A stretch of 64,000 bases of DNA, taken from the sequence record MT129652.1. One strand, written 5' to 3'. This DNA is from Escherichia phage MN01. The position numbers were made by a program, and so were the translations under genes. Positions 3,428-63,976 of this stretch are shown here, one piece after another. The first letter of the stretch is position 1, and each line of letters opens with the position of its first letter. The notes below the pieces were generated by a model, which was not told the origin of the DNA, made no database searches, and worked only from the letters and a program-made list of their open reading frames with translations.

Positions 3428-6142
3428 ATGCAAGAATTTTATTTAACTATCGAACAAATCGGTGACAATCTGCTCGAACGATATATTGACAAGAACGGTC
3501 ATGAACGTGTTCGTGAAATCCCTTATGCTCCATGCTTGTTTATGCACGCCCGCGAAGACCAGGCTGCAAAGTATACAGACATCTATAATAAAGGTTGTGT
3601 GAAAAAAGAATTCGATTCCATGCGTGATGCATCCCAGTGGATGAAGCGAATGAATGAAATGGGTCTCGAAGCTATGGGTATGGATGACTTTAAACTCGCA
3701 TACTTGTCCGACCGTTACCCGCACGAAATCAAATACGATTCAAGTAAAATCCGTGTGGCTAACTTCGATATCGAGGTGACATCTCCTGATGGGTTCCCTG
3801 AGCCGTCTGAAGCACGTCACCCTATTGATGCCCTGACACACTATGATTCGGTAGACGATAAATTCTATGTCTTTGACCTTTTGAGCTCACCATACGCCAC
3901 TGTGGAGCAATGGTCTATCGATATTGCTGCCAAGCTGCAAGAAGATGGCGGCGATGAAGTCCCTGAAGAAATCCTGGAAAAAATTGTTTATATGGCTTTC
4001 GATTCAGAAGAAGAAATGCTCCAGCAGTATTTGGTATTCTGGAACGAGAAAACTCCGGTTATGTTAACTGGTTGGAACATCGAGAAGTTTGATATTCCAT
4101 ATATCTACAACCGCCTTAAAAATGTATTTGGTGAAGCTACGGCAAAACGTCTGAGTCCACATCGTCGTACAAAAGTTAAGGTCATTAACAACGGTTTCGG
4201 TGAAGAACAAGAAATCATTCAGATTCTGGGTATCTCTGTTCTGGATTATCTGGACCTGTATAAAAAGTTCAGCTTCACAAACCAACCGTCTTATTCGTTG
4301 GATTATGTTGCGGAATCTGAACTGGGTGTTGGTAAACTCCCGTATGATGGTCCGATTTCTAAACTGCGTGAATCAAATCACCAGCGGTATATTTCTTATA
4401 ACATCATTGACGTTTATCGTGTTGTGCAGATTGACCGTAAGCGGCAGTTTATTAACCTGAGTCAGTCAATGGGTTATTACGCAAAAATGCAGATTCAGTC
4501 TGTATTCAGCCCAATCAAAACTTGGGATGCGATTATCTTTAACAGCCTGAAGACTCAAAACAAAGTCATTCCGGAAACCAAATCGCATGTTCGTCAATCG
4601 TTCCCTGGTGCATTTGTTAAGGAACCGATTCCGAACGCATACAAATATGTAATGAGCTGTGACTTAACATCTCTGTATCCGAGCATCATCCGACAGATTA
4701 ACATCAGTCCAGAAACGATTGCCGGGTCATTTACACCAGCGCCGATGTATGAATACATTGCAGGAACTGCTGACCGCCCATCTGATACATTTAGTTGTGC
4801 TCCAAACGGTATGATGTATTTTAAAGATGTTGCGGGTATTATTCCGACAGAAGTCACCAAGGTGTTTAATCAGCGTAAAGAGCACAAAGGTTATATGCTT
4901 GCGGCTCAACGTAATGGTGAACTGATTAAGGAAGCCCTGCGTAATCCAGGAACTGGTACAACCGAGCCTGAAGTTGATTATCGTTATGACTTCGATGACA
5001 ATATGAAAACAACCTTGCACGGTCTGAATCAAACAGTTCTGAATGGTATGTTGTACAAAGCGCAGATGGAAGAAGTTGCAGGCATGACCGCACAGATTAA
5101 CCGTAAACTGCTTATCAACAGTTGTTATGGCGCTCTGGGTAATATCTGGTTCCGTTACTTTGACCTGCGAAATGCAACCGCGATTACATCTTTCGGACAA
5201 CTTGCATTGCAGTGGATTGAGCGTAAAGTTAACGAATATTTTGATAGTGTTTGCGGTACAAGTGGTGAAACATATGTATTCTATGGTGATACTGACTCCA
5301 TTTATATCCAGTGCGATAACCTGATTAAAAAGGTTGGTGGTGAATCTAAATTCCGCGATACAAACCACCTGGTTGACTTCATGGACAAGTTTGCGAAAGA
5401 CCGTTTGGAACCGGCAATCGATAAAGCTTTCCGTGAGCTGGCTGAATACATGAACAACAAACAGCACCTTATGTTTATGGACCGTGAAGCGATTGCATGT
5501 CCTCCGCTTGGTTCTAAAGGTGTTGGTGGATTCTGGACAGCGAAGAAGCGTTATGCTCTGAACGTGTACGATATGGAAGGCACACGATATGCTGTTCCGA
5601 AACTGAAAATCATGGGTCTGGAAACTCAAAAGTCGAGCACACCAAAAGCATGTCAGAAAGCTCTGAAAGAATGTATCCGCCGTATGTTGCAAGAAGGTGA
5701 AGAATCTCTGCAGACATACTTCAAGGAATTCAATAAGGAATTTAATGAGCTTAACTACATGACCATTGCAGGTGTATCATCGGTTAACAACATCCAGAAA
5801 TATAATGAAGGTGGTTTCCCTGGATTTAAGTGTCCGGCTCATATCAAAGGCGTGCTCGCTTACATGCGTGCAACCAAAGGGTTGAAGACTGTTCCACAAA
5901 TCATGGAAGGGGAAAAGGTGTATGTGCTTCCTCTTAAAGTTGGTAACCCGTTTGGCGAAACCGTGATTGCATGGCCATCAGGGATTGAACTCCCGATTGA
6001 AATTCGTGACCAAGTCTTGCAATGGATGGACTACAACACACTGTTCCAGAAGACTTTTGTTAAGCCATTGACAGGGTTCTCTGAAGCAGCTAAGGTTGAT
6101 TACGAGAAAAAAGCATCTCTTTTTGATATGTTTGACTTTTAA
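3428..6142 (+). CDS. 43: DNA polymerase gp43 (family B, 3-prime to 5-prime exonuclease)
   Basis: 904 aa; exo motif FDIE, pol motifs SLYPSII and YGDTDS; synteny. Confidence 0.95.
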   Translation: MQEFYLTIEQIGDNLLERYIDKNGHERVREIPYAPCLFMHAREDQAAKYTDIYNKGCVKKEFDSMRDASQWMKRMNEMGLEAMGMDDFKLAYLSDRYPHEIKYDSSKIRVANFDIEVTSPDGFPEPSEARHPIDALTHYDSVDDKFYVFDLLSSPYATVEQWSIDIAAKLQEDGGDEVPEEILEKIVYMAFDSEEEMLQQYLVFWNEKTPVMLTGWNIEKFDIPYIYNRLKNVFGEATAKRLSPHRRTKVKVINNGFGEEQEIIQILGISVLDYLDLYKKFSFTNQPSYSLDYVAESELGVGKLPYDGPISKLRESNHQRYISYNIIDVYRVVQIDRKRQFINLSQSMGYYAKMQIQSVFSPIKTWDAIIFNSLKTQNKVIPETKSHVRQSFPGAFVKEPIPNAYKYVMSCDLTSLYPSIIRQINISPETIAGSFTPAPMYEYIAGTADRPSDTFSCAPNGMMYFKDVAGIIPTEVTKVFNQRKEHKGYMLAAQRNGELIKEALRNPGTGTTEPEVDYRYDFDDNMKTTLHGLNQTVLNGMLYKAQMEEVAGMTAQINRKLLINSCYGALGNIWFRYFDLRNATAITSFGQLALQWIERKVNEYFDSVCGTSGETYVFYGDTDSIYIQCDNLIKKVGGESKFRDTNHLVDFMDKFAKDRLEPAIDKAFRELAEYMNNKQHLMFMDREAIACPPLGSKGVGGFWTAKKRYALNVYDMEGTRYAVPKLKIMGLETQKSSTPKACQKALKECIRRMLQEGEESLQTYFKEFNKEFNELNYMTIAGVSSVNNIQKYNEGGFPGFKCPAHIKGVLAYMRATKGLKTVPQIMEGEKVYVLPLKVGNPFGETVIAWPSGIELPIEIRDQVLQWMDYNTLFQKTFVKPLTGFSEAAKVDYEKKASLFDMFDF

Positions 6143-6143
6143 G

Positions 6144-6174
6144 TGTTTACAACGGCAAAGGACTGCCGTATGAT
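6144..6174 (+). promoter_or_regulatory. early sigma70-type promoter upstream of imm
   Basis: GTTTACA -35, about 18 bp, TATGAT -10; hairpin in spacer. Confidence 0.4.
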
Positions 6175-6211
6175 TACTCCATCAACTGATGATTAAATTA
6201 AGGATATTAAA

Positions 6212-6454
6212 ATGGAAACATTAATTGCAGGTACTGTTGTTCTTGGCGCTGGTTCTTTCTTCCTGGCTGCACTGGCATATTTTCTGCCGTGGATTATCGC
6301 ACTACTGCGAGGAACCAAAAGTAATTGCGGAATCTTCTTTGTTAACCTCCTGTTAGGTTGGACAATGGTCGGATGGTTTATTGCATTTATCTGGGCACTC
6401 GTTGCTGAGCGTAAATCAAACGCACAAGTAATTATCATCAAGGAAACCAAATGA
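6212..6454 (+). CDS. imm: superinfection immunity protein (Imm-like membrane protein)
   Basis: 80 aa, two TM helices, NLLLGWTxxGWxxAFIWAL motif; T4 imm position after gene 43. Confidence 0.65.
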   Translation: METLIAGTVVLGAGSFFLAALAYFLPWIIALLRGTKSNCGIFFVNLLLGWTMVGWFIAFIWALVAERKSNAQVIIIKETK

Positions 6455-6594
6455 AGATAATTACAATTATTGTACTGACTGCATTTTTTAGTATGTCAAT
6501 CTATTGGGCAATAATGACTCCGCATATGATTCCAACTTTAATTTTGGGTTGGGTATTTTTGGGACTCCAAGCTCGCTATGAATGTTTTAATTGA
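6451..6594 (+). CDS. small hydrophobic protein (47 aa)
   Basis: ATGA overlap with imm stop; hydrophobic; not in ORF track (below 60 aa). Confidence 0.3.
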   Translation: MKIITIIVLTAFFSMSIYWAIMTPHMIPTLILGWVFLGLQARYECFN

Positions 6595-6604
6595 GGAAAA
6601 TACA

Positions 6605-7108
6605 ATGAAAAAGTTAGCTATCGCAGCTGTTATGCTGCTATCTGGTTGTGCTTACCAGGGTGATGTTGTTAATGCCAACGAGATTGGTAAAGCGCGAATT
6701 GCTGCAGACCGTCAGGTGCATAATGGTTCCTTTGATTTCAAAGGTGGTACTGGACTTATCTACAAACGCGACAACAATCAATGTGGAAATAACTGCGCGA
6801 AATATGCTCAACGTGAAGTTGAATATCAGCGTGAACAAGCCGCGAAGCATGATGAAGTAATCGCTAAATTGGAAGCAGAAACCAAGCGACAAAATGACCT
6901 GGATACTGTTAACCAGATTTCACAGGTCTGCATGTCATATATCAATATGCAGATAAACATCATGCGTGCAGAAGCTTATCAGGCAGCGGAGACGGGTTCT
7001 CCAAAAGCCAATGAGTATCGCGATATGTATCAGCGTTCTGCTCAAAACCGTCTGAGCTATATTAATAAATGTGTAGCTAAAGAGAAAGCACGCCAAGGTA
7101 TTAACTGA
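6605..7108 (+). CDS. putative lipoprotein
   Basis: Signal peptide MKKLAIAAVMLLSGC with lipobox; SD GAGGAA upstream; track ORF 6578 trimmed to this start. Confidence 0.5.
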   Translation: MKKLAIAAVMLLSGCAYQGDVVNANEIGKARIAADRQVHNGSFDFKGGTGLIYKRDNNQCGNNCAKYAQREVEYQREQAAKHDEVIAKLEAETKRQNDLDTVNQISQVCMSYINMQINIMRAEAYQAAETGSPKANEYRDMYQRSAQNRLSYINKCVAKEKARQGIN

Positions 7109-7215
7109 TGCTATTATTACTTCTGATTGTTGGAACAGTAATTGGTTTGCTGCTATTAGAAAAGCGTAATAAGCATTTGGCTGAAGAAAACTGGAAACGT
7201 GGAAACGTTTACTAA
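7108..7215 (+). CDS. small membrane peptide (35 aa)
   Basis: Start overlaps preceding stop; single hydrophobic helix; speculative. Confidence 0.25.
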   Translation: MLLLLLIVGTVIGLLLLEKRNKHLAEENWKRGNVY

Positions 7216-7242
7216 ATTACTCTGAACTGCGAGAAAAATATT

Positions 7243-7371
7243 ATGATTGGTACGCTATTGATTAGTCTGTGGCTGTTGTCTGCATTTGGTATTGGTTTTA
7301 TGTACTGGTGGGACAAACGTCAGACCCGGAAGATTGTTGAACGTGCAATTAATCGTGGATTCAATCGTTAA
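7243..7371 (+). CDS. small membrane peptide (42 aa)
   Basis: Hydrophobic N-terminus then basic tail; speculative. Confidence 0.3.
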   Translation: MIGTLLISLWLLSAFGIGFMYWWDKRQTRKIVERAINRGFNR

Positions 7372-7397
7372 TTGCTCTAAAAATACAGTGATATAAT
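7372..7397 (+). promoter_or_regulatory. MotA-box middle promoter upstream of uvsX
   Basis: TTGCTCTAA, about 14 bp, TATAAT; T4 uvsX has a middle promoter. Confidence 0.4.
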
Positions 7398-7450
7398 TAT
7401 CCTATCTTAAACCTGTGAGAAAAATATAATGGTGCCTATGGAAAAAATGA

Positions 7451-8629
7451 ATGTCTATTGCAGATTTGAAATCCCGTTTGATTAAAGCTTCTACATCTAA
7501 AATGACTGCGACTCTTACCAAGTCCAAGTTTTTTAATGATAAAGATGTAGTTCGTACAAAAATCCCGATGCTGAACATTGCAATCAGCGGTGCACTAGAT
7601 GGTGGTATGCAGTCAGGTTTGACTATTTTTGCTGGTCCGTCAAAACACTTTAAATCCAATATGGGTTTAACGATGGTCTCTGCATATATGAACAAATACC
7701 CCGATGCAATCTGTTTGTTCTATGATTCAGAATTTGGTATCACAGAAGCATATCTTCGTGCAATGAAAGTAGACCCGGAACGTGTTATCCATACACCAAT
7801 CCAGTCGGTTGAACAATTGAAAGTTGATATGGTTAACCAGCTTGAAGCAATTGAGCGTGGTGAAAAAGTCATTATCTTTATTGACTCAATCGGTAACATG
7901 GCGTCGAAAAAAGAAACAGAAGATGCGATGAACGAAAAAGTCGTTGGCGATATGACTCGTGCTAAATCCCTGAAATCTCTGTTCCGTATTGTTACCCCAT
8001 ATTTTAGTATCAAGGATATTCCTTGTGTCGCGGTTAACCATACAATCGAGACGATTGAGATGTACAGCAAAACCGTTATGACCGGTGGTACAGGTGTTAT
8101 GTATTCTGCGGACACAGTATTCATTATCGGCAAACGCCAGATTAAAGAAACTGGTAAAGAACTTGAAGGTTTCCAATTTGTTCTGAACGCCGAAAAATCT
8201 CGTATGGTCAAAGAGAAAAGTAAATTCTTCATTGATGTAAAATTCGATGGTGGTATTGACCCGTATTCTGGTCTGCTTGATATGGCAATGGAAATCGGAT
8301 TTGTGGTGAAACCGAAAGTTGGTTGGTATAACCGTGAATATCTTGATGTTGAGACCGGTGAAATGGTCCGCGAAGAAAAATCATGGCGTGCAAAAGATAC
8401 TAACTGCACCGAATTCTGGGGTCCGTTGTTCAAGCACGAACCTTTCCGCGATGCAATCAAACGCCATTACCAACTGGGTGCAATCGATAGCAATGCTGTT
8501 GTTGATGCCGAAGTTGATGCGCTTATTGCCTCCAAGGTTGAAAAATACTCTGCTCCTGAAGGTAAGACAAAACCGTCTGCTGCAGATATCGAAAACGATT
8601 TAGATATGATGGAAGACCTTGATGAATGA
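7451..8629 (+). CDS. uvsX: recombinase UvsX (RecA-like)
   Basis: 392 aa; close match to recalled T4 UvsX (LKSRLIKASTSK, GPSKxFKSN Walker A). Confidence 0.93.
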   Translation: MSIADLKSRLIKASTSKMTATLTKSKFFNDKDVVRTKIPMLNIAISGALDGGMQSGLTIFAGPSKHFKSNMGLTMVSAYMNKYPDAICLFYDSEFGITEAYLRAMKVDPERVIHTPIQSVEQLKVDMVNQLEAIERGEKVIIFIDSIGNMASKKETEDAMNEKVVGDMTRAKSLKSLFRIVTPYFSIKDIPCVAVNHTIETIEMYSKTVMTGGTGVMYSADTVFIIGKRQIKETGKELEGFQFVLNAEKSRMVKEKSKFFIDVKFDGGIDPYSGLLDMAMEIGFVVKPKVGWYNREYLDVETGEMVREEKSWRAKDTNCTEFWGPLFKHEPFRDAIKRHYQLGAIDSNAVVDAEVDALIASKVEKYSAPEGKTKPSAADIENDLDMMEDLDE

Positions 8630-14706: not shown

Positions 14707-15225
14707 ATGGCTCATTTTAACGAGTGTTCTCAACTGATTGCGGGTGTTGATAAAGCTGAAGAAGCTTATGACAATGCAATTATCGAAGGTACTGACCCGC
14801 TGCAGATTATGCTTGATATGCAGAAATCTTTGCAGGTCCGGTTGGCTACTGAAAAACCAGAATATAACTCACATCCAGATGAATTGGCTACTGCAGGTGA
14901 TGTTGTTACCTGGCTCCGCAACCAGAAAGATTATATTGATGATGAATTCCGCGAACTGATTACTGCATTAGGTGGCATGTCCAATGGCGAGAAAGCTGCC
15001 TCGGCCGTATGGAAACCATGGAAAGCACAACATGGTGAAATGCAGCAAACCCTGATTAACGATTTGTCTCCTGAAGACCAGCTCGAAATTAAATTCGAAA
15101 TGATTGATATCCTGCACTTTGTTCTGAACATGTTCCATGGTCTTGGTCTATCTGCAGAAGAAATCTTTAAACTGTATTACCTGAAAAACGCTGAGAACTT
15201 TGCTCGTCAGGACCGAGGTTATTAA
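14707..15225 (+). CDS. 56: dCTP pyrophosphatase gp56 (MazG-like)
   Basis: Matches recalled T4 gp56 (MAHFNEC, EFRELI, EIKFE, KNAENFARQD); MazG acidic motifs; adjacent to 61. Confidence 0.75.
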   Translation: MAHFNECSQLIAGVDKAEEAYDNAIIEGTDPLQIMLDMQKSLQVRLATEKPEYNSHPDELATAGDVVTWLRNQKDYIDDEFRELITALGGMSNGEKAASAVWKPWKAQHGEMQQTLINDLSPEDQLEIKFEMIDILHFVLNMFHGLGLSAEEIFKLYYLKNAENFARQDRGY

Positions 15226-15506
15226 TGGCTCGTTTAAATAAACGTCAGCTTAAGAAAGCTCGTAAGAAGCATATTAATGATATAATTGAAAACGCTAATG
15301 TTGAAATCTTTGTAGAACTTTTAGCCAATCAACTAAAAAATTTATCTAAACAAGAAATTGCTATGAATACTGAAAATGCTAAAAATGTAATCGAAACTCA
15401 TAATGTTTTTGCCCAAGCTACTGCTGAATACATTGCTAATCCTACTGCTGAAAATCTAGCTAAAATGACCGAAGCCAATAAAGCAGTCCAAGCCGCCAAA
15501 TTGTAA
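15225..15506 (+). CDS. hypothetical protein
   Basis: 93 aa, helical, basic N-terminus. Confidence 0.45.
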   Translation: MARLNKRQLKKARKKHINDIIENANVEIFVELLANQLKNLSKQEIAMNTENAKNVIETHNVFAQATAEYIANPTAENLAKMTEANKAVQAAKL

Positions 15507-25187: not shown

Positions 25188-25592
25188 ATGTTTAAAATTG
25201 GAAAGAGTTATTGCATTAAAGATTTAGATGGCTTCCTTAAACATGTCGGTATGCCCGGTAGCATTTTGAACCAACAAGGAACCTCTATTATTGATTTGGT
25301 TACTACCAAAGAGTTTTCAGTCACTAAGATGGAAGCAAATGTTGTTACGGAATTTAGTACTATCGATGGAACTGGATTTTCTTTCCATAGTCGTAATGGA
25401 ACCGGTCTTATTTTTGGTGATGAATTTAAATATTTTGAAGAAACCCCGATAAAGGAATGTGATTCTGAAATAACCGAACAGGAATCAAAAGAGGATATCG
25501 TTGTTACCGGTGGCGATGTTATTATTACGGTTAAAACTGAAGTCGGACGCCTACAAGCTATTAAAATGTTAGAGCAGCTTCGATTCAAATAA
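25188..25592 (+). CDS. hypothetical protein
   Basis: 134 aa (alt. start 25173); followed by CUUCGG terminator. Confidence 0.5.
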   Translation: MFKIGKSYCIKDLDGFLKHVGMPGSILNQQGTSIIDLVTTKEFSVTKMEANVVTEFSTIDGTGFSFHSRNGTGLIFGDEFKYFEETPIKECDSEITEQESKEDIVVTGGDVIITVKTEVGRLQAIKMLEQLRFK

Positions 25593-32140: not shown

Positions 32141-32410
32141 ATGATTAAGCATTTCAATGTGTCAGACCGTGACATCAAAGTTTCAAATCTCCGGGGTCAC
32201 CATTATGCAGGAATAGTTTACTGTGGTAAGCTCATCAAGCATGAAGGTGATGTTCACTATGGCTGGTTGGAATGTGATGAAGTAGTTGTTGGGGAATTCC
32301 CTGACCCGGATTCTGATACATTTGATGCTAATGACCGTTTGTACTATGGCGAGCTTCATATCCGGGGAATCGTCGGTATCGATGAGGTAAAAGATGATTC
32401 AGAAGAGTAA
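32141..32410 (+). CDS. hypothetical protein
   Basis: 89 aa, acidic C-terminus. Confidence 0.45.
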   Translation: MIKHFNVSDRDIKVSNLRGHHYAGIVYCGKLIKHEGDVHYGWLECDEVVVGEFPDPDSDTFDANDRLYYGELHIRGIVGIDEVKDDSEE

Positions 32411-32987
32411 AACATGGGAGCATCTGAAAAAGATGCCCTCCTTTCTTTATACAAAAGAAGACTTAACCCCTGAATCTCTACAAAAGATTGTAGACACAGC
32501 CAGGTATTCATTGCGTAAAGACCCAGGTCAAGACCGTGAGCAAGTCATGCAAAGATGTATGGTGGCTACAATGGCCGAACAAGCTATTGCTAAATGGACC
32601 TCCGGCTTTTTATGTGGCGGCGATGAAGATTACGATAATCCTTATTCCTTTGCATTTGATGTAGTTTCGAAGGAAGGAGTAAGAATCGAAGTCAAGACCC
32701 ATCAGTCTGGTTCCAAATGGATATCCGTGCATACTGGCCACCAGGGTGATTATCCACATGGTTACGGGATTAATCTTGGTCCTTTTATGCAGCACAAGCT
32801 TGCCGACCTTATGATTATGCTCGATGTAAAAGAGACTCTCAAAGGTTATAGATTTAAACCAAAATTCCTTGCTGGACCTGGTGCTTTCGTTCCTGAGTCT
32901 GGTCTTGTGCAGAAGTCACAAGGGGATGGCTGGTACCTCCGTTCTTGTTCAGAAGAAAAATTTCCCTATCACCGGTTTACAAGCTGA
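32394..32987 (+). CDS. hypothetical protein with PD-(D/E)xK-like motif (possible nuclease)
   Basis: 197 aa; AFDVV...RIEVKT resembles D...(D/E)xK core; near where T4 has denB; unverified. Confidence 0.5.
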   Translation: MIQKSKTWEHLKKMPSFLYTKEDLTPESLQKIVDTARYSLRKDPGQDREQVMQRCMVATMAEQAIAKWTSGFLCGGDEDYDNPYSFAFDVVSKEGVRIEVKTHQSGSKWISVHTGHQGDYPHGYGINLGPFMQHKLADLMIMLDVKETLKGYRFKPKFLAGPGAFVPESGLVQKSQGDGWYLRSCSEEKFPYHRFTS

Positions 32988-37609: not shown

Positions 37610-37825
37610 ATGTTTACTGCACAACAGAATGAAGGTCAAGAATACATTAACGCTAAATTCAAATCCAATAAAGAAGCTTGCTATTACTACTTTGACATGT
37701 TCAAACTGGCGAATTCTAAAGAAGAACGTAAACAAGCGATTGATGTTATTGTTTCCACTTCCCATATGAAACGTACTGTGGTACAATCATATGCATCAAA
37801 TTACATGAAATCTATTAAGGGATAA
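37610..37825 (+). CDS. hypothetical protein
   Basis: 71 aa from SD-preceded ATG; promoter cassette upstream. Confidence 0.5.
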   Translation: MFTAQQNEGQEYINAKFKSNKEACYYYFDMFKLANSKEERKQAIDVIVSTSHMKRTVVQSYASNYMKSIKG

Positions 37826-38625: not shown

Positions 38626-38958
38626 ATGAATAAGCTGAATATTGTTAATGAATTGCGTGCTTGCGTAGAACCTACTCAAGAGGGTTGGGATGTTTGGTAT
38701 CATGGCGCTTACCTTGGAACTATTGTCAAGGTCAAAGCTGGTCAGTATCTTATTCATCGTCAGGATGATGCAGTAGCTCCGTTTGGTGCACGCAAGAACT
38801 TCATGGCGGCGATTGGTGCCTTTGTCCCAGCAGCATATGAAGTATATAAAGCTGACTACAAAGAATACCAGGAATCACAACCAGTTATTCGCTCAATTGG
38901 TGTTAATAAAGCTCAACAGAAAAGTCTGTGGCAACGTGTTAAAGGTTGGTTCAAATGA
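38626..38958 (+). CDS. hypothetical protein
   Basis: 110 aa; SD GAGAGG. Confidence 0.5.
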
Positions 38959-39443
38959 ATCCATTAAAAGGTAAAGAATTATCCTTTAAAGACCGTATGG
39001 CTTTATTAGATAAAGCTCTTTCTCGTGAAACTCCTGAAAGTCTCGCTGCTAAATTACAGGCATATGGTGATTACGCTGAATATACAGAAGAGGATGTTTT
39101 AGAAGAAGTCCCGGAAATCTGTTGGCAGATTGCTCATTGGAATAACAATGAAAAATATCAGCGACGGATTGTATGCGCAGCCAACCGCTTTAAGTTAAAA
39201 GATGGTGGGACTCTGGTTATTCCTGGTGCCAGACATTATTCAAAAGATATGGCAGAAGTGCTTGACCAGGTAAGTGATAAACTTGTGTCAGACCATGTTT
39301 GTGGTGACGACCAAGGGTTCATTGACCAATACAGCAATTACTGGACCCGTGAAGAAGCGATGATTATTGCGACTTATGCAAATCAGGTGCGTATTGAACG
39401 TGGTGGTAGTGAAAAAGAACTTTATTCAGAGGACCTTTATTAA
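38946..39443 (+). CDS. hypothetical protein
   Basis: 165 aa; conserved-looking blocks ([24 protein letters not shown]); function unknown. Confidence 0.5.
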
Positions 39444-40033: not shown

Positions 40034-40309
40034 ATGACTAAATTTGAAATCGTTTCTGAAATTGTTACTGTAACTTCAATTTTGATTAAAACCGACCGGG
40101 AAGATATTACGATGAAGCGTGATGTATTTATCGCGTTTTTGAATGAGTTGGGATTGAGAAATGAGAATGGGAATGAGTTAAACAATGTATCGTTTAACAA
40201 GTTGTTTAAAAGTTTATCTGAAGATGAAATTGAACAAATTATTGAACAATTTAACGAAGGATTCGAAGATATACACCGTTATCTTATGATGTATACCTCC
40301 GGATTCTAA
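40034..40309 (+). CDS. asiA: anti-sigma70 factor AsiA
   Basis: 91 aa; IxTVxSILIK and FNEGFEDxxRYLxMYT match recalled T4 AsiA. Confidence 0.85.
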   Translation: MTKFEIVSEIVTVTSILIKTDREDITMKRDVFIAFLNELGLRNENGNELNNVSFNKLFKSLSEDEIEQIIEQFNEGFEDIHRYLMMYTSGF

Positions 40310-40959
40310 CGTGTACGCCCAAGCGTACGACCTGCTTGTCCACACATAGCAGAAAGCCTATCAAAACCAAGGTTAGGTTTTTGCTTATACCAGTACAGTG
40401 AGACTGTGCCTGCATAAACGTTTTCCAAATTAAAGAACGGGCAGCTGAACATATATGCGAAGCTGCTTTTTTTCTTTGTTGGTAAGAATACAGATTCCGT
40501 ACTGGATTCAAAATAATTACCATTAACCCCCGCCAAATATTCCGCCGAAGTTTTATCTATTGGAAACCCACCTAAATTTTTTTCGTCGACTGTATCAGGC
40601 AATATCCCCTCGTATCCCACCATATCCACAAAGTAGTTAAGGTTAGTTGGTCTAAAAGAATATATTGCTGTAAAGTCTGCCCCACTTGACGAGTGGACTA
40701 TCTGGATTTGCTCGATAGCTGCAATTTTAAATCTGTTATCCTGGTCTTGCCTTATCATTTCAGTGTATGAGGCATATGAAGCATCCCTGTACGCATCTAA
40801 AAGTGCATCACCTTTATACCAGATTACCGCCATTAAAAATAATAGAACAATAACTAGTACCCGGGAAAAAACAACTTTCCCGGTCGCATTATCTTTAAAA
40901 ATTCTATCAAGAAGTCCAAAAAGTAGGTCGGGTATTGATATTCCTACTTTTGGTTCCAT
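40306..40959 (-). CDS. t: holin T
   Basis: 217 aa (T4 T 218); LLFGxLDRxFKDNATGKV and FVDxxxYEGxLP match recalled T4 holin; TATAAATA upstream. Confidence 0.9.
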   Translation of the reverse strand: MEPKVGISIPDLLFGLLDRIFKDNATGKVVFSRVLVIVLLFLMAVIWYKGDALLDAYRDASYASYTEMIRQDQDNRFKIAAIEQIQIVHSSSGADFTAIYSFRPTNLNYFVDMVGYEGILPDTVDEKNLGGFPIDKTSAEYLAGVNGNYFESSTESVFLPTKKKSSFAYMFSCPFFNLENVYAGTVSLYWYKQKPNLGFDRLSAMCGQAGRTLGRTR

Positions 40960-40996: not shown

Positions 40997-41779
40997 CTAT
41001 AGCCAGGAGCCGTAGATAGTGCCTGTAGCGCCCCATGAAGGAGAACTTCCGAATACAGCTCGTCCAGCTCCGCCTTGTGAGCCGTATGTAACGCTTCGTC
41101 CGTAAGCACCGCCACCAGCCCCGCCCGCATCGCCACCATTACCACCACCCCACTGTCCGCCAAAGCTACCACCGCCACCTGGGCCTGTATAACTAGCGTT
41201 GCCACCTGGGTTTACGGCACCATTAGTACCACCTAATCCATATGGTCTACCGCCACCGCCACCGGCAGTACCAGCTTCAAGCCAAGAGTTATTTGAAGCG
41301 CATCCGGCACCACCGCCACCACCTGAAGCTATAACGCCATAGTTCCAGATACGGAGTCTGCCTCCAATGTCGTTTTGAATTACATCACCGCCATTTGTAC
41401 CTGCTATCCAAACACGGGTCCCACCATTACCACCGCGTCCCCACATATGAACCCCACCATGAATATTCAAAGTAACATATTCATTAGGAGTATCACCGTA
41501 CATAAAGAACAATGGAACATCTTTAGTATAAGATACTAAATCACCTGTGATATTAAACACAATAGGGGCAGCACCGGCTTCAAAACAACGGTCTCTAAAC
41601 CATTGCCCGTTAAAGTTATGGTCGGCTCCAAGCGTGTGAATTACTTCAACAGATCGACCTATCATATTACTCATCCAAAATGGAACACCCATTCTTAATC
41701 TTACGGCTGCTCCTGCCATCCAAGGGTCTCCAGTTTGTACCCTTGCAGACCATCCTACCCACGGTCCTTCAACTGCCAT
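40997..41779 (-). CDS. 38: tail fibre adhesin gp38 (T2-type, glycine-rich motifs)
   Basis: About 260 aa from ATG at 41779 with SD GGAGG (track start 41791 is TTG); poly-Gly motifs between variable segments. Confidence 0.8.
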
Positions 41780-55955: not shown

Positions 55956-57731
<1,776 letters not shown>

Positions 57732-57732
<1 letters not shown>

Positions 57733-57990: not shown

Positions 57991-58290
57991 ATGAAAGCCT
58001 GTCGGGTTGTTAACAAATATCAATCCGACTTTGATGTGAATATTCAACGGGGTACCATGTGGGGAAATCCATATAAAGATGGTACCCGAGAAGAAAACAT
58101 AAAGAACTTTAAAGAATATTTCATAGCAAAGATTAAATCGGGTGAAATCAAAAGAGAACACCTTGAAACCCTTCGCGGAATGCGATTAGCGTGTACATGC
58201 AAACCGAAAGCATGTCATGGCGATGTTATCGCTCTGGTCGTTAACAAACTTTTCAAAGACACCTTTTCGCTCGAGGATTTGGGTGCATAA
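57991..58290 (+). CDS. hypothetical protein with CxC..P..CH.D motif
   Basis: 99 aa; WGNPY ... ACTCKPKACHGD resembles small conserved phage/bacterial proteins of unknown function. Confidence 0.45.
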   Translation: MKACRVVNKYQSDFDVNIQRGTMWGNPYKDGTREENIKNFKEYFIAKIKSGEIKREHLETLRGMRLACTCKPKACHGDVIALVVNKLFKDTFSLEDLGA

Positions 58291-58349: not shown

Positions 58350-58595
58350 ATGAATTTACGATTTAAACGCCAGTCAGGTGAAGTCATTTTTGAAATGCCA
58401 CAATTTACCGAACAGGATTTACCTGCCCCAAATTCTTATATCACTATTGACGGAATCAAATTTCTGGCCAAACGACATGAACGTGTCTACTGTCATGATT
58501 CAGCCGGTGATGTCCAGTCATATTTTGACATCACTGTTCAGTCAGAAGAAGAATATAATGATGAAATGACTTCGGAACTACCAGAGACAATTTAA
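58350..58595 (+). CDS. hypothetical protein
   Basis: 81 aa; SD GAGAGG. Confidence 0.45.
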   Translation: MNLRFKRQSGEVIFEMPQFTEQDLPAPNSYITIDGIKFLAKRHERVYCHDSAGDVQSYFDITVQSEEEYNDEMTSELPETI

Positions 58596-62127: not shown

Positions 62128-62538
62128 ATGAAACAAATCGCTGACGAATACAGTTTTATAAAATACGCGGAGTTAGAGTTAGTCGATGGTAAAATCCCTA
62201 TCCTTACTCTCGCAAACAAGAAAAATGTTATCTATGCTATTTCAGTTGATGATGAACTAGTGTATATTGGTAAGACGAACAACCTTAAGAAGCGTATCAA
62301 CTATTACCGGACTGCAATTAACCGAATCGAACAGACGAGTGATTCAAACAAATCCCGGATGATACATGAAGCTTTACAAGAAGGCAAAAAGGTGGTATTC
62401 TATGCACGACAATGTTTCAATCTGTCAATGACCAATGAACTTGGTACGATGTCAGTCGAAACGATGTCTCTGGAAGAGCCGATGTTCATCAAGCTTTTTA
62501 ATCCCCCGTGGAATTACCAACATAAGGTGAAGAAATGA
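62128..62538 (+). CDS. denA: endonuclease II DenA (GIY-YIG-like)
   Basis: Matches recalled T4 DenA (EYSFIKY, VYIGKTxNLxKRINYYRTAINR, FYARQCFNLSMTNELGTM); start ATG 62128. Confidence 0.85.
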   Translation: MKQIADEYSFIKYAELELVDGKIPILTLANKKNVIYAISVDDELVYIGKTNNLKKRINYYRTAINRIEQTSDSNKSRMIHEALQEGKKVVFYARQCFNLSMTNELGTMSVETMSLEEPMFIKLFNPPWNYQHKVKK

Positions 62539-63700: not shown

Positions 63701-63711
63701 CTATACATAAT
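63683..63711 (+). promoter_or_regulatory. PeSL-like early promoter cassette
   Basis: Hairpin-embedded TGTACA, 17 bp, CATAAT; leader CCATCAACTACTGATGAGGA. Confidence 0.5.
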
Positions 63712-63742
63712 GGTTCCATCAACTACTGATGAGGACCAAAAC

Positions 63743-63976
63743 ATGTTAAACTTAATTACAAATGACAGAGTTACACAGGCATATGGTGACAGAAATGATG
63801 GAATCTATGTCTACAAGGGAGACCGCCGGATTGGTTTCATTACTGACCTGAAGGCCAAATTGTTAAAAGAATTGAAAGCTCAAACAAGTGATTCTGGGTT
63901 TAGAGCAAGAGCCAAAAAGAAAGATGAGCGCCTGGGTGCCAACTCTTTTGGTCCCCGGGGTTACAACCGCTACTAA
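63743..63976 (+). CDS. hypothetical protein
   Basis: 77 aa from SD-preceded ATG; track ORF 63710 reads through the leader. Confidence 0.45.
   Translation: MLNLITNDRVTQAYGDRNDGIYVYKGDRRIGFITDLKAKLLKELKAQTSDSGFRARAKKKDERLGANSFGPRGYNRY

What the first reader, a model, noticed from the sequence alone, without database searches (positions are those of the whole stretch)
6143..7450. Canonical dCMP hydroxymethylase/beta-glucosyltransferase locus replaced by small membrane and lipoprotein ORFs
In T4 the 43-uvsX interval contains imm, gene 42 and beta-gt. Here the 1.3 kb gap holds only imm, a 167-aa lipoprotein and three short hydrophobic ORFs, with no room for gene 42. Yet dCTPase (56) and endonuclease II (denA), hallmarks of cytosine-modifying phages, are present. 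Either the modification genes lie elsewhere in the genome or this phage uses a different cytosine strategy.
Basis: partly seen in the sequence, partly recalled or inferred. Interest (0 to 1): 0.55.

Follow-up and report, generated by a model that had tools for sequence, protein, structure and literature searches.

The report
T4-like phage probably making 5-methylcytosine DNA
This T4-like coliphage really lacks the usual cytosine-hydroxymethylating and sugar-adding genes, and its only "thymidylate synthase" gene carries the one amino-acid switch known to redirect that enzyme to dCMP, so it most likely fills its DNA with 5-methylcytosine, which would answer a question left open in the literature.

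Summary
Between gene 43 (3428-6142) and uvsX (7451-8629) there are only imm, a 47-aa membrane ORF, a 167-aa lipoprotein and two tiny ORFs of 35 and 42 aa. No gene 42, glucosyltransferase or arabinosylation gene is present.

The window is a Gaprivervirus (97% identical to phage RZ, about 94% to VR7). Papers from 2021 and 2025 already note that this genus lacks gene 42 yet keeps 56, denA, denB and alc, and they leave the base unknown.

A thymidylate-synthase (TS) superfamily profile finds one hit in the window and one in the whole VR7 genome: "td" (56872-57732). Of the 12 residues near C5 of the substrate, td differs from T4 thymidylate synthase only by Asn177 to Asp (codon 57430-57432). This is the documented dUMP-to-dCMP switch. 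Leu143 and Asp169 are kept, which argues for a methyl product.

Asp177 occurs in td of every lineage reported to lack a known enzyme (Gaprivervirus, ZZ1, 133, MP1). Every td checked from gene-42-bearing relatives has Asn, as does the one unmodified-cytosine relative checked.

Published restriction analysis reports VR7 DNA as cytosine-modified and not glycosylated.

Most likely this is an Xp12-style 5-methylcytosine pathway. It has not been shown biochemically.

The parts
3428..6142 (+). gene 43 DNA polymerase (left flank of the interval)
   Evidence: 904 aa; 98% identical to VR7 gp43 and 78% to JS98 gp43.
6212..6454 (+). imm, superinfection immunity membrane protein
   Evidence: Pfam Imm_superinfect 1e-17; PHROG 1039; 52% identical to T4 Imm; two hydrophobic segments.
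6451..6594 (+). 47-aa hydrophobic ORF (T4 '42.1'-like)
   Evidence: PHROG 3610, 2.7e-26. Conserved in RZ and VR7, 53% identical in JS98, and 57% over 30 aa in T4 between imm and gene 42.
6605..7108 (+). 167-aa predicted lipoprotein of unknown function
   Evidence: Signal peptide with lipobox LLSG|C. PHROG 1754, 8.4e-47. 54% identical to JS98 orf43; N-terminus similar to T4 imm.1.
7108..7215 (+). 35-aa single-pass hydrophobic ORF; coding status uncertain
   Evidence: Identical in RZ. Absent from VR7 as a roughly 100-bp indel. No family match.
7243..7371 (+). 42-aa single-pass hydrophobic ORF just upstream of uvsX
   Evidence: 95-98% identical in RZ and VR7. Its C-terminal 23 aa are 52% identical to an unannotated stretch just upstream of uvsX in JS98.
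7451..8629 (+). uvsX recombinase (right flank of the interval)
   Evidence: 392 aa; 99% identical to VR7 UvsX.
14707..15225 (+). gene 56 dCTP/dUTP pyrophosphatase homolog, which removes unmodified dCTP
   Evidence: Pfam dUTPase_2 and PRA-PH; PHROG 173. 87% identical to JS98 gp56 but only 72% to VR7 gp56.
32394..32987 (+). denB, endonuclease IV homolog (in T4, specific for dC-containing DNA)
   Evidence: PHROG 1360 DenB-like, 3.4e-80, full length; 95% identical to VR7 DenB.
56294..56875 (+). frd dihydrofolate reductase, overlapping the td start by 4 nt
   Evidence: Pfam DHFR_1, 3.6e-21; 96% identical to VR7 frd. It would recycle the dihydrofolate produced by a reductive methyl transfer.
56872..57732 (+). 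'td': the only TS-family gene; predicted dCMP 5-methyltransferase (5-methyl-dCMP synthase)
   Evidence: Pfam Thymidylat_synt 5.8e-91; end-to-end match to T4 TS 1TIS, 7.5e-128. Signature in E. coli ThyA numbering: L143, C146, H147, D169, D177. Only TS-superfamily hit in the window and in the VR7 genome.
57430..57432 (+). GAC codon for Asp187, equivalent to E. coli ThyA Asn177: the substrate-specificity switch
   Evidence: Read directly from the sequence. The motif is [10 protein letters not shown] here and LGLPFNIASY in T4, JS98 and E. coli.
62128..62538 (+). denA, endonuclease II homolog
   Evidence: Pfam GIY-YIG; 97% identical to VR7 and 77% to JS98 DenA.
63710..63976 (+). 88-aa ORF resembling the N-terminal part of Alc; in VR7 the full alc gene lies just beyond the window end
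   Evidence: Pfam ALC 2.4e-10, profile positions 3-62 of 177. Matches VR7ORF243c next to VR7 alc.

Best explanation
The 43-uvsX slot holds the cytosine-modification cassette in relatives: gene 42 plus beta-gt in T4, and an RB69-type 5-hydroxy-dCMP synthase plus arabinosylation genes in JS98. In this Gaprivervirus the slot is empty. Only the resident membrane genes remain (imm, the 42.1-like ORF, a lipoprotein) plus two tiny ORFs.

Cytosine replacement is instead done by the gene annotated td. It is a bona fide T4-type thymidylate synthase in fold, position and every catalytic residue, except that the specificity residue Asn177 is Asp.

Inferred pathway:
1. gp56 hydrolyses dCTP and dCDP to dCMP.
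2. The Asp177 td methylates dCMP to 5-methyl-dCMP using methylene-tetrahydrofolate, and the adjacent Frd recycles the dihydrofolate.
3. The gp1 dNMP kinase and host NDP kinase convert it to 5-methyl-dCTP, which gp43 incorporates, so 5-methylcytosine replaces cytosine throughout the genome.
4. Alc, DenB and DenA then act selectively on the cytosine-containing host DNA.
5. dTMP or dTTP comes from deamination of 5-methyl-dC nucleotides by the cd deaminase, from host ThyA, or from breakdown of host DNA.

What is shown: the gene content, the single TS-family gene, the residue signature, and its co-variation with loss of gene 42 across lineages. What is inferred: the enzyme activity, the identity of the base, and the source of thymidylate.
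For: 1. Only one TS-family gene. T4 gp42 and beta-gt give no tblastn hit in the window or the whole VR7 genome. A TS-superfamily HMM was built from TS, gp42, the JS98 orf39 5-hydroxy-dCMP-synthase-type homolog and the Xp12 TS homolog. It hits only td among 1679 six-frame segments. The VR7 annotation lists no 42, a-gt or b-gt.

2. Empty slot. JS98 carries a TS homolog with D177/E143/N169 and arabinosylation genes exactly between the lipoprotein homolog and uvsX. PMC13326640 covers the RB69-type cluster and its residue rules.

3. Residue signature. td aligns end to end with T4 TS 1TIS (7.5e-128). Of the 12 residues within 6 A of C5 it differs only at N177D; L143 and D169 are kept.

4. Published rules. 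N177D, and N229D in L. casei, converts TS into a dCMP methylase. Asp177 marks cytosine-modified contigs (PMC8670742). An acidic residue at 143 marks hydroxymethyl or hydroxy products, and D169N marks 5-hydroxy (PMC13326640). Five of seven tested Asp177 homologs made 5-methyl-dCMP in vivo when co-expressed with T4 gp1 (bioRxiv 10.1101/2024.12.05.627091).

5. Co-variation.
- Asp177: Gaprivervirus td (the window plus four protein clusters), ZZ1, MP1 and phage 133. These are exactly the lineages that PMC8056088 lists as lacking any known enzyme.
- Asn177: 115 of the 120 listed best td matches, plus JS98, T4, Kimel, Morttis and Acj9.
- Asn177: Phi1, from a genus reported to lack 42, alc and denB (PMC12115623).

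6. Experiment on a relative. Restriction analysis reports that VR7 DNA 'has modified cytosines' and is unglycosylated. It is classed apart from hydroxymethylated T4 147 in an assay that included T4 beta-glucosyltransferase treatment. The panel included EcoRII (blocked by Dcm methylation), SalI (blocked by CpG methylation) and Csp6I (methylation-insensitive). Source: PMC6326788 and its supplement.

7. Supporting genes. frd overlaps td. cd is intact with its zinc motifs, and gp1 is present in VR7. Xp12, the 5-methylcytosine archetype, has TS homolog, dCMP deaminase and DHFR side by side, and its TS homolog has D177 and D169.
Against: - No enzymatic or nucleoside-level data exist for this phage or genus. 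I did not see the restriction gels, only the legend and text.
- Engineered N177D enzymes are slow, so good activity here depends on unexamined compensating changes. There are 22 differences fixed in td of the Asp group (the window, four Gaprivervirus clusters and one unassigned metagenomic protein) and seen in none of the 115 Asn-type sequences.
- The position-143 rule is not strict: Xp12 has Asn there in my alignment.
- It is untested whether Alc and DenB spare 5-methylcytosine DNA.
- E. coli K-12 restricts 5-methylcytosine DNA with McrA, McrBC and Mrr. No arn homolog is annotated in VR7, so an unknown counter-defence would be needed.
- The co-variation rests on about four Asp177 lineages.
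Confidence: 0.7

Rival explanations
1. A non-TS enzyme encoded elsewhere in the genome makes a truly unknown cytosine derivative, as the 2021 and 2025 papers speculate. On this reading td's Asp177 is incidental.
For: PMC8056088 and PMC12115623 propose an unknown protein or base. Many Gaprivervirus ORFs have no known function. The VR7ORF147c family occurs only in phages whose sole TS homolog has Asp177.
Against: Among VR7 ORFs of at least 70 aa outside the structural block, those with no JS98 counterpart are homing endonucleases, internal-head-type proteins and proteins under about 185 aa without enzyme motifs. ORF147c has no deaminase motifs; it looks like a Rho_N/SAP-type small protein, and its MP1 homolog is listed among proteins identified by mass spectrometry. 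The Asp177 co-variation would be left unexplained.
Confidence: 0.1
2. The Asp177 td acts on dCMP but makes something other than a methyl group, such as 5-hydroxymethyl-dCMP. Alternatively it is bifunctional (dUMP and dCMP), and 5-methylcytosine replaces cytosine only in part.
For: Asp177 is shared by hydroxymethylases and 5-hydroxy-dCMP synthases. Two of seven Asp177 homologs tested in bioRxiv 10.1101/2024.12.05.627091 did not yield 5-methyl-dCMP. The position-143 rule is imperfect.
Against: Leu143, Asp169, His147 and the full TS C-terminus are retained, and frd is co-located. The same single change in E. coli and L. casei TS gives a methylase (PMC8670742). VR7 DNA was classed separately from hydroxymethylated T4 147 in an assay that used T4 beta-glucosyltransferase.
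Confidence: 0.12
3. The phage packages ordinary cytosine DNA. Its 56, alc and denB homologs are inactive or retargeted, and the cassette was simply lost.
For: Krischvirus and Pseudotevenvirus T4-like phages lack gene 42 and are treated in the literature as having ordinary cytosine DNA (PMC12115623).
Against: Those genera also lack alc and denB, and the one Krischvirus td checked (Phi1) keeps Asn177. Here 56, denB and denA are full length and strongly match their families. The gp56 allele is 87% identical to that of JS98, which carries an RB69-type cytosine-modification cassette. VR7 DNA is reported as cytosine-modified.
Confidence: 0.05

Closest known systems
Xanthomonas phage Xp12 (and Pseudomonas phage PaMx74): complete 5-methylcytosine substitution through a TS-family dCMP methyltransferase
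   Same: - A single TS homolog with Asp at position 177 and Asp169.
- A companion DHFR and a dCMP-deaminase-family enzyme.
- No second thymidylate synthase.
- Predicted pre-replicative synthesis of 5-methyl-dCMP.

   Different: - Only about 30% identity to the Xp12 enzyme.
- The enzyme here is a T4-type td changed in place, 65% identical to T4 TS and still in the frd-td-nrdA position.
- It sits in a T4-type genome with gp56 dCTPase, Alc, DenA and DenB.
- cd is not adjacent to td.
- Activity and base identity are not demonstrated.
T4 gene 42 dCMP hydroxymethylase with alpha- and beta-glucosyltransferases
   Same: The surrounding logic is the same: gp56 removes dCTP, a TS-fold enzyme with Asp at the specificity position modifies dCMP, gp1 phosphorylates the product, and Alc and DenB discriminate against cytosine-containing DNA.
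   Different: No gene 42 or glucosyltransferase is present. td has Leu rather than Asp at position 143 and a full TS C-terminus, so methyl rather than hydroxymethyl is predicted. VR7 DNA is reported as unglycosylated.
RB69/JS98-type 5-hydroxy-dCMP synthase plus arabinosylation cluster
   Same: In JS98 the cluster occupies the same imm-to-uvsX slot, next to homologs of the same imm, 47-aa ORF and lipoprotein genes.
   Different: The whole cluster of about 4.2 kb is absent here. td has D169, not the diagnostic N169.
Engineered E. coli N177D and L. casei N229D thymidylate synthases
   Same: The same single active-site substitution in an otherwise canonical TS. These mutants methylate dCMP to 5-methyl-dCMP (cited in PMC8670742).
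   Different: This is a natural enzyme. 22 further substitutions are fixed in the Asp group (mainly Gaprivervirus) and absent from the Asn group.

Membership tests
TS-family dCMP 5-methyltransferase (Xp12 type) | Thymidylate synthase fold or domain over the full length | tested here: met
   Pfam PF00303 5.8e-91, residues 2-286; 1TIS match 1-286, 7.5e-128.
TS-family dCMP 5-methyltransferase (Xp12 type) | Catalytic Cys146 and the phosphate and pyrimidine ligands R21, E58, Y94, R166, S167, H207, Y209 | tested here: met
   All conserved in the alignment with E. coli ThyA and T4 TS.
TS-family dCMP 5-methyltransferase (Xp12 type) | Asp instead of Asn at position 177 (dCMP rather than dUMP) | tested here: met
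   Asp187, codon GAC at 57430-57432. The Xp12 TS homolog also has Asp.
TS-family dCMP 5-methyltransferase (Xp12 type) | Lacks the marks of hydroxymethyl or hydroxy products (no acidic residue at 143; Asp169 not Asn) | tested here: met
   L143 and D169. Rule from PMC13326640. The rule is not strict, since Xp12 has N143 in my alignment.
TS-family dCMP 5-methyltransferase (Xp12 type) | Enzyme converts dCMP to 5-methyl-dCMP | not testable with these tools
   Needs expression with gp1 plus LC-MS, or a purified-enzyme assay.
TS-family dCMP 5-methyltransferase (Xp12 type) | Virion DNA has 5-methylcytosine in place of cytosine | not testable with these tools
   Indirect evidence only. VR7 DNA is reported as 'modified cytosines', unglycosylated and distinct from hydroxymethylated DNA, by restriction analysis (PMC6326788).
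TS-family dCMP 5-methyltransferase (Xp12 type) | Companion DHFR, dCMP-deaminase-family enzyme and dNMP kinase; no separate dUMP-specific TS | tested here: met
   frd at 56294-56875. cd and gp1 are present in VR7, outside the window. td is the only TS-family gene.
Canonical thymidylate synthase (T4 td) | Asn at position 177 for dUMP specificity | tested here: not met
   Asp here. Asn in 115 of the 120 listed best td matches, and in T4, JS98 and E. coli.
T4 gene 42 dCMP hydroxymethylase | A gp42-like protein encoded in the genome, classically between imm and uvsX | tested here: not met
   No tblastn hit at E<0.1 in the window or the VR7 genome. The interval has no ORF longer than 176 aa.
T4 alpha/beta-glucosyltransferase | A homolog of b-gt or a-gt | tested here: not met
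   T4 b-gt tblastn gives only chance-level hits. a-gt was not searched by sequence; the VR7 annotation lists none between genes 47 and a-gt.2.
RB69/JS98 arabinosyl-5-hydroxycytosine cluster | D169N TS homolog plus sugar-nucleotide and glycosyltransferase genes | tested here: not met
   JS98 orf38-orf42 have no counterpart in this interval. JS98 orf39 gives no hit in the window or VR7.
Imm superinfection immunity protein | Imm_superinfect domain in a small two-pass membrane protein next to gene 43 | tested here: met
   Pfam 1e-17; two hydrophobic segments.
Bacterial-type lipoprotein | N-terminal signal peptide ending in a lipobox with Cys | tested here: met
   MKKLAIAAVMLLSG|C read directly from the translation. 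No dedicated predictor was available.

The most novel reading that the evidence does not exclude
Gaprivervirus coliphages, and independently Acinetobacter phages ZZ1 and 133 and Morganella phage MP1, are T4-like phages that replace cytosine fully with 5-methylcytosine. They achieved this by changing their own thymidylate synthase in place (Asn177 to Asp) after losing the gene-42-type cassette. They keep the T4 machinery that excludes cytosine-containing DNA (gp56, Alc, DenB) and obtain thymidylate by deaminating 5-methyl-dC nucleotides. A small protein family, VR7ORF147c with a paralog at window 37610-37825, was found only in such phages and may be a 5-methylcytosine-specific accessory or counter-defence factor.
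Probability: 0.55. Interest if true: 0.7.

Novelty: new member of a known kind. Interest (0 to 1): 0.6.

Why it matters
Two papers (2021 and 2025) state that Gaprivervirus phages could not replicate without a non-canonical base, yet encode no known enzyme to make one. The 2025 paper withholds a recommendation on their use in phage therapy for that reason.

The present analysis gives a specific and cheaply testable answer: 5-methylcytosine made by the gene annotated td.

If true, several things follow:
- 5-methylcytosine joins glucosyl-hydroxymethylcytosine and arabinosyl-5-hydroxycytosine among the cytosine replacements of T4-like coliphages.
- It would be a natural counterpart of the classical N177D specificity-switch experiment, apparently repeated in several lineages.
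- It explains why BREX blocks VR7.
- It predicts sensitivity to the 5-methylcytosine-dependent systems McrA, McrBC and Mrr.
- 'Thymidylate synthase' annotations in phages should be read at position 177 before a phage is called unmodified.

Tried and rejected
- **Relocated gene 42, b-gt or RB69-type synthase.** I searched the window and the complete VR7 genome with tblastn and a TS-superfamily HMM. Only td was found.
- **A new enzyme among genus-specific ORFs.** I listed VR7 ORFs of at least 70 aa with no JS98 hit and ran Pfam on ten candidates. They are homing endonucleases (Endonuclease_7, T5orf172), DUF7275/7277, or proteins with no match. This search did not cover the VR7 structural block at 81-131 kb.
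- **VR7ORF147c as a second deaminase.** It was originally annotated as similar to a cytidine/dCMP deaminase. It has no Pfam hit and no H(C)xE or PCxxC zinc motifs. It looks like a Rho_N/SAP-type small protein, and its MP1 homolog is listed among proteins identified by mass spectrometry. I rejected it as the modifying enzyme and kept it as a co-occurring accessory family.
- **Neighbourhoods of ORF147c homologs in ZZ1, MP1 and BP63.** No shared enzyme cluster was found.
- **Regulatory signals in the interval.** The promoter and terminator scan gave nothing above the shuffled expectation.
- **Prior statement of the td explanation.** Literature searches found none for Gaprivervirus, ZZ1, 133 or MP1 in the held library.
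- **Not attempted.** I did not predict the structure of the lipoprotein or of td, and did not use the last large protein search.
Full report
**Identity of the window.** The window is a T4-like phage of the genus Gaprivervirus. Bases 5500-8000 are 97% identical to Escherichia phage vB_EcoM_RZ and about 94-96% identical to VR7, VR20, VR26 and SP18. The + strand carries the T4 early genes in the order 45, 44, 62, regA, 43, imm ... uvsX, 40, 41, 61, 56 ... rIIA, rIIB, denB. The tail-fibre genes 34-38 follow on the - strand. Then come rnh, 32, frd, td, nrdA, nrdB, denA and rnlA.

**Checking the observation.** Between gene 43 (3428-6142) and uvsX (7451-8629) lie 1308 bp with five ORFs.
- imm, 6212-6454. 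Pfam Imm_superinfect 1e-17.
- A 47-aa hydrophobic ORF, 6451-6594. PHROG 3610; VR7 annotates it as '42.1', and it also has matches in JS98 and T4.
- A 167-aa lipoprotein, 6605-7108, with lipobox LLSG|C. PHROG 1754; 54% identical to JS98 orf43.
- A 35-aa ORF, 7108-7215. It is a roughly 100-bp indel absent from VR7.
- A 42-aa ORF, 7243-7371.

The same interval is 3635 bp in T4 (imm.1, imm, 42, b-gt, segA) and 5378 bp in JS98. T4 gp42 and b-gt give no tblastn hit in the window or anywhere in the VR7 genome. Gene 56, denA and denB are present and full length.

**What the interval is.** JS98 (genus Dhakavirus) is the informative comparison. It has imm, a small ORF and the lipoprotein homolog orf43. 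It then has orf42 to orf38, annotated as homologs of RB69 orf052, 051, 045, 048 and 047, before uvsX. PMC13326640 assigns functions to this RB69 set. RB69 gp48 is a TS homolog that makes 5-hydroxy-dCMP, and the other genes make UDP-arabinose and transfer arabinose to DNA.

JS98 orf39 carries the matching signature: D177, E143 and N169.

So the imm-to-uvsX slot is where T4-like phages keep their cytosine-modification cassette. In this phage the cassette of about 4.2 kb is missing. The membrane and lipoprotein genes are resident neighbours of the slot, not replacements. The C-terminal part of the 42-aa ORF is even recognisable just upstream of uvsX in JS98.

**What was already known.** PMC8056088 (2021) reports four groups of phages that lack any known enzyme for a non-canonical base: Gaprivervirus, Acinetobacter phages ZZ1 and 133, and Morganella phage MP1. 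It notes that Gaprivervirus nevertheless has DenA, DenB, Alc and the dCTPase, and suggests an unknown protein. That paper never mentions methylcytosine or the td gene.

PMC12115623 (2025) repeats the point. [quoted passage not shown]

PMC6326788 (2019) gives experimental data on VR7. By restriction analysis VR7 DNA 'has modified cytosines' and is unglycosylated. It is classed apart from hydroxymethylated T4 147 in an assay that included T4 beta-glucosyltransferase treatment. The enzymes used were EcoRII (blocked by Dcm methylation), SalI (blocked by CpG methylation) and Csp6I (insensitive to methylation). BREX blocks VR7 completely.

**Search for the missing enzyme.** VR7 ORFs of at least 70 aa with no counterpart in JS98 are homing endonucleases, internal-head-type proteins and small proteins without enzyme motifs. 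The VR7 structural block at 81-131 kb was not part of this comparison. VR7ORF147c had once been annotated as deaminase-like. It has no deaminase motifs and looks like a Rho_N/SAP-type small protein.

I built a TS-superfamily HMM from canonical TS, T4 gp42, the JS98 orf39 5-hydroxy-dCMP-synthase-type homolog and the Xp12 TS homolog. Searched against all 1679 six-frame segments of the window plus the VR7 genome, it hits only td.

**The td gene.** td (56872-57732) matches Pfam Thymidylat_synt at 5.8e-91. It aligns end to end with T4 thymidylate synthase 1TIS at 7.5e-128. PMC13326640 lists 12 residues within 6 A of C5 of the substrate. td is identical to T4 TS at all of them except one: E. coli Asn177 is Asp here (motif [10 protein letters not shown]; codon GAC at 57430-57432).

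The functional meaning of these positions is documented.
- Asn177 to Asp (Asn229 to Asp in L. casei) turns TS into a dCMP methylase. Asp177 marks cytosine-modified contigs in metaviromes (PMC8670742).
- An acidic residue at 143 goes with hydroxymethyl or hydroxy products, and D169N goes with 5-hydroxy (PMC13326640).
- Five of seven Asp177 homologs tested made 5-methyl-dCMP in vivo when co-expressed with T4 gp1 (bioRxiv 10.1101/2024.12.05.627091).

td keeps L143, D169, H147 and the full TS C-terminus. It overlaps frd (DHFR), as expected for a reductive methyl transfer.

**Co-variation across lineages.** Of the 120 listed best matches to td, the four Gaprivervirus clusters and one protein from a 5.4-kb metagenomic contig have Asp. 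The other 115, all T4-like td proteins, have Asn. The results for named phages are:

| Phage or group | gene 42-type enzyme | alc and denB | td residue 177 |
|---|---|---|---|
| Gaprivervirus (window, VR7) | absent | present | Asp |
| Acinetobacter phage ZZ1 | absent | present | Asp |
| Acinetobacter phage 133 | absent | present | Asp |
| Morganella phage MP1 | absent | present | Asp |
| T4 | present | present | Asn |
| JS98 | present | present | Asn |
| Kimel, Morttis, Acj9 | not listed as lacking (PMC8056088) | not checked | Asn |
| Phi1 (Krischvirus) | absent | absent | Asn |

For ZZ1, 133 and MP1, the gene-42 status is taken from PMC8056088. For phage 133 the alc and denB entry also comes from that paper. 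For Phi1, both entries are the genus-level values in PMC12115623.

So Asp177 appears exactly in the lineages that lost a gp42-type enzyme but kept the machinery that excludes cytosine-containing DNA. These td proteins are 32-53% identical to each other. In the ranked matches to ZZ1 td, Asp and Asn types are interleaved. This points to several independent switches.

Xp12 is the archetypal phage with 5-methylcytosine in place of cytosine. It has TS homolog, dCMP deaminase and DHFR side by side, and its TS homolog has D177 and D169.

**Proposed mechanism.** The steps below are inferred except where a call is cited.
1. gp56 converts dCTP and dCDP to dCMP.
2. td methylates dCMP to 5-methyl-dCMP, and Frd regenerates the folate.
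3. gp1 and host NDP kinase produce 5-methyl-dCTP, which gp43 incorporates.
4. Alc, DenB and DenA act on the cytosine-containing host DNA.
5. Thymidylate comes from cd, host ThyA, or host DNA breakdown. cd is intact in VR7, and deamination of 5-methyl-dC nucleotides is the route proposed for Xp12-type phages.

This accounts for several facts at once: the retention of 56, alc and denB; the empty cassette slot; the published restriction pattern of VR7; and the sensitivity of VR7 to BREX.

**Caveats.**
- Nothing has been shown biochemically for this genus.
- I read only the legend of the restriction figure, not the gels.
- Engineered N177D enzymes are slow, so good activity would depend on other changes. 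22 substitutions are fixed in the Asp group and absent from the Asn group.
- The position-143 rule is imperfect, since Xp12 has Asn there in my alignment.
- 5-methylcytosine DNA should be attacked by McrA, McrBC and Mrr in E. coli K-12, and VR7 has no annotated arn homolog. Some counter-defence must therefore exist.

I put about 0.7 on 5-methylcytosine made by td. The rest is split three ways: another product or partial substitution (0.12), an unknown non-TS pathway (0.10), and unmodified DNA (0.05).

**Verdict.** The absence of gene 42 is real but already published. The explanation offered here uses known enzymology and a known kind of system (Xp12-type), so I rate it a new member of a known kind. 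I found no statement of it in the searched literature. It makes a question posed in 2021 and 2025 directly testable with a single LC-MS run.

Noticed in passing
window 37610-37825 (+); VR7 record 65136-65561 (L004:34137-34562, -): A 71-aa ORF upstream of motA is a paralog of the C-terminal domain of VR7ORF147c (PHROGs 17275 and 9997). Among 50,697 phage records the ORF147c family occurs in only 101. Among those listed are the Gaprivervirus genomes, ZZ1, 133, W16 and MP1, about 52-kb BP63- and ZCSE2-like myophages, and two Erwinia phages. In every one whose TS homolog I checked (VR7, ZZ1, 133, MP1, BP63), that homolog is the only one found or annotated and has Asp177. The family may be an accessory or counter-defence factor linked to 5-methylcytosine.
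   Followed up: partly
window 14707-15225, 38955-39443, 40034-40309, 40306-40959 (-), 40997-41779 (-): The window is a mosaic with Dhakavirus. gp56 is 87% identical to JS98 but 72% to VR7. The holin t is 100% identical to JS98, and asiA and arn.3 are 98-99%. The gp38-type adhesin is 90% identical to JS98 orf244 and has no VR7 counterpart. This points to recent exchange between phages predicted to carry different cytosine modifications.
   Followed up: partly
window 63710-63976 (+): An 88-aa ORF matches only the N-terminal third of the Alc profile (Pfam ALC 2.4e-10). In VR7 it sits directly next to the full-length alc gene, so it may be a partial duplication or a split of alc.
   Followed up: no
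window 57991-58290 and 58350-58595 (+): Two small ORFs between td and nrdA (DUF4326 and DUF5496) are absent from VR7. The first is 93% identical to a stretch of JS98 within the annotated nrdA.1/td overlap.
   Followed up: no
window 25188-25592 (+) and 15225-15506 (+): A 134-aa ORF and a 93-aa ORF have no match in VR7 or JS98. They occupy the positions where VR7 carries homing endonucleases: an Endonuclease VII-type gene next to gene 39, and segF next to gene 56.
   Followed up: no
window 56872-57732, residues 45-57, 64-97, 158, 238, 276 and 283: Besides Asp187, 21 other positions in td are fixed in the Asp group (the window, four Gaprivervirus clusters and one unassigned metagenomic protein) and never seen in the 115 Asn-type T4-like td proteins. 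They cluster at residues 45-57 and 64-97 and may be compensating changes for dCMP use.
   Followed up: partly
JS98 locus L008:3960-4658 (-), orf39: The JS98 TS homolog has E143, N169 and D177, the published signature of 5-hydroxy-dCMP synthases. Dhakavirus therefore probably carries RB69-type arabinosyl-5-hydroxycytosine rather than hydroxymethylcytosine.
   Followed up: partly
BP63 locus L014:37219-38103 (-), gp55: The annotated thymidylate synthase of Salmonella phage BP63 (Rosemountvirus) also has L143, D169 and D177, with Y147. It sits next to a nucleotide pyrophosphohydrolase gene, and a dCMP deaminase is encoded elsewhere in the genome. This genus may also replace cytosine.
   Followed up: no
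VR7 locus L004:39191-39868 (-), gene 1: The VR7 dNMP kinase gp1 is only 54% identical to JS98 gp1, lower than for most replication proteins compared between this window and JS98. This may reflect a different modified dCMP substrate.
   Followed up: no
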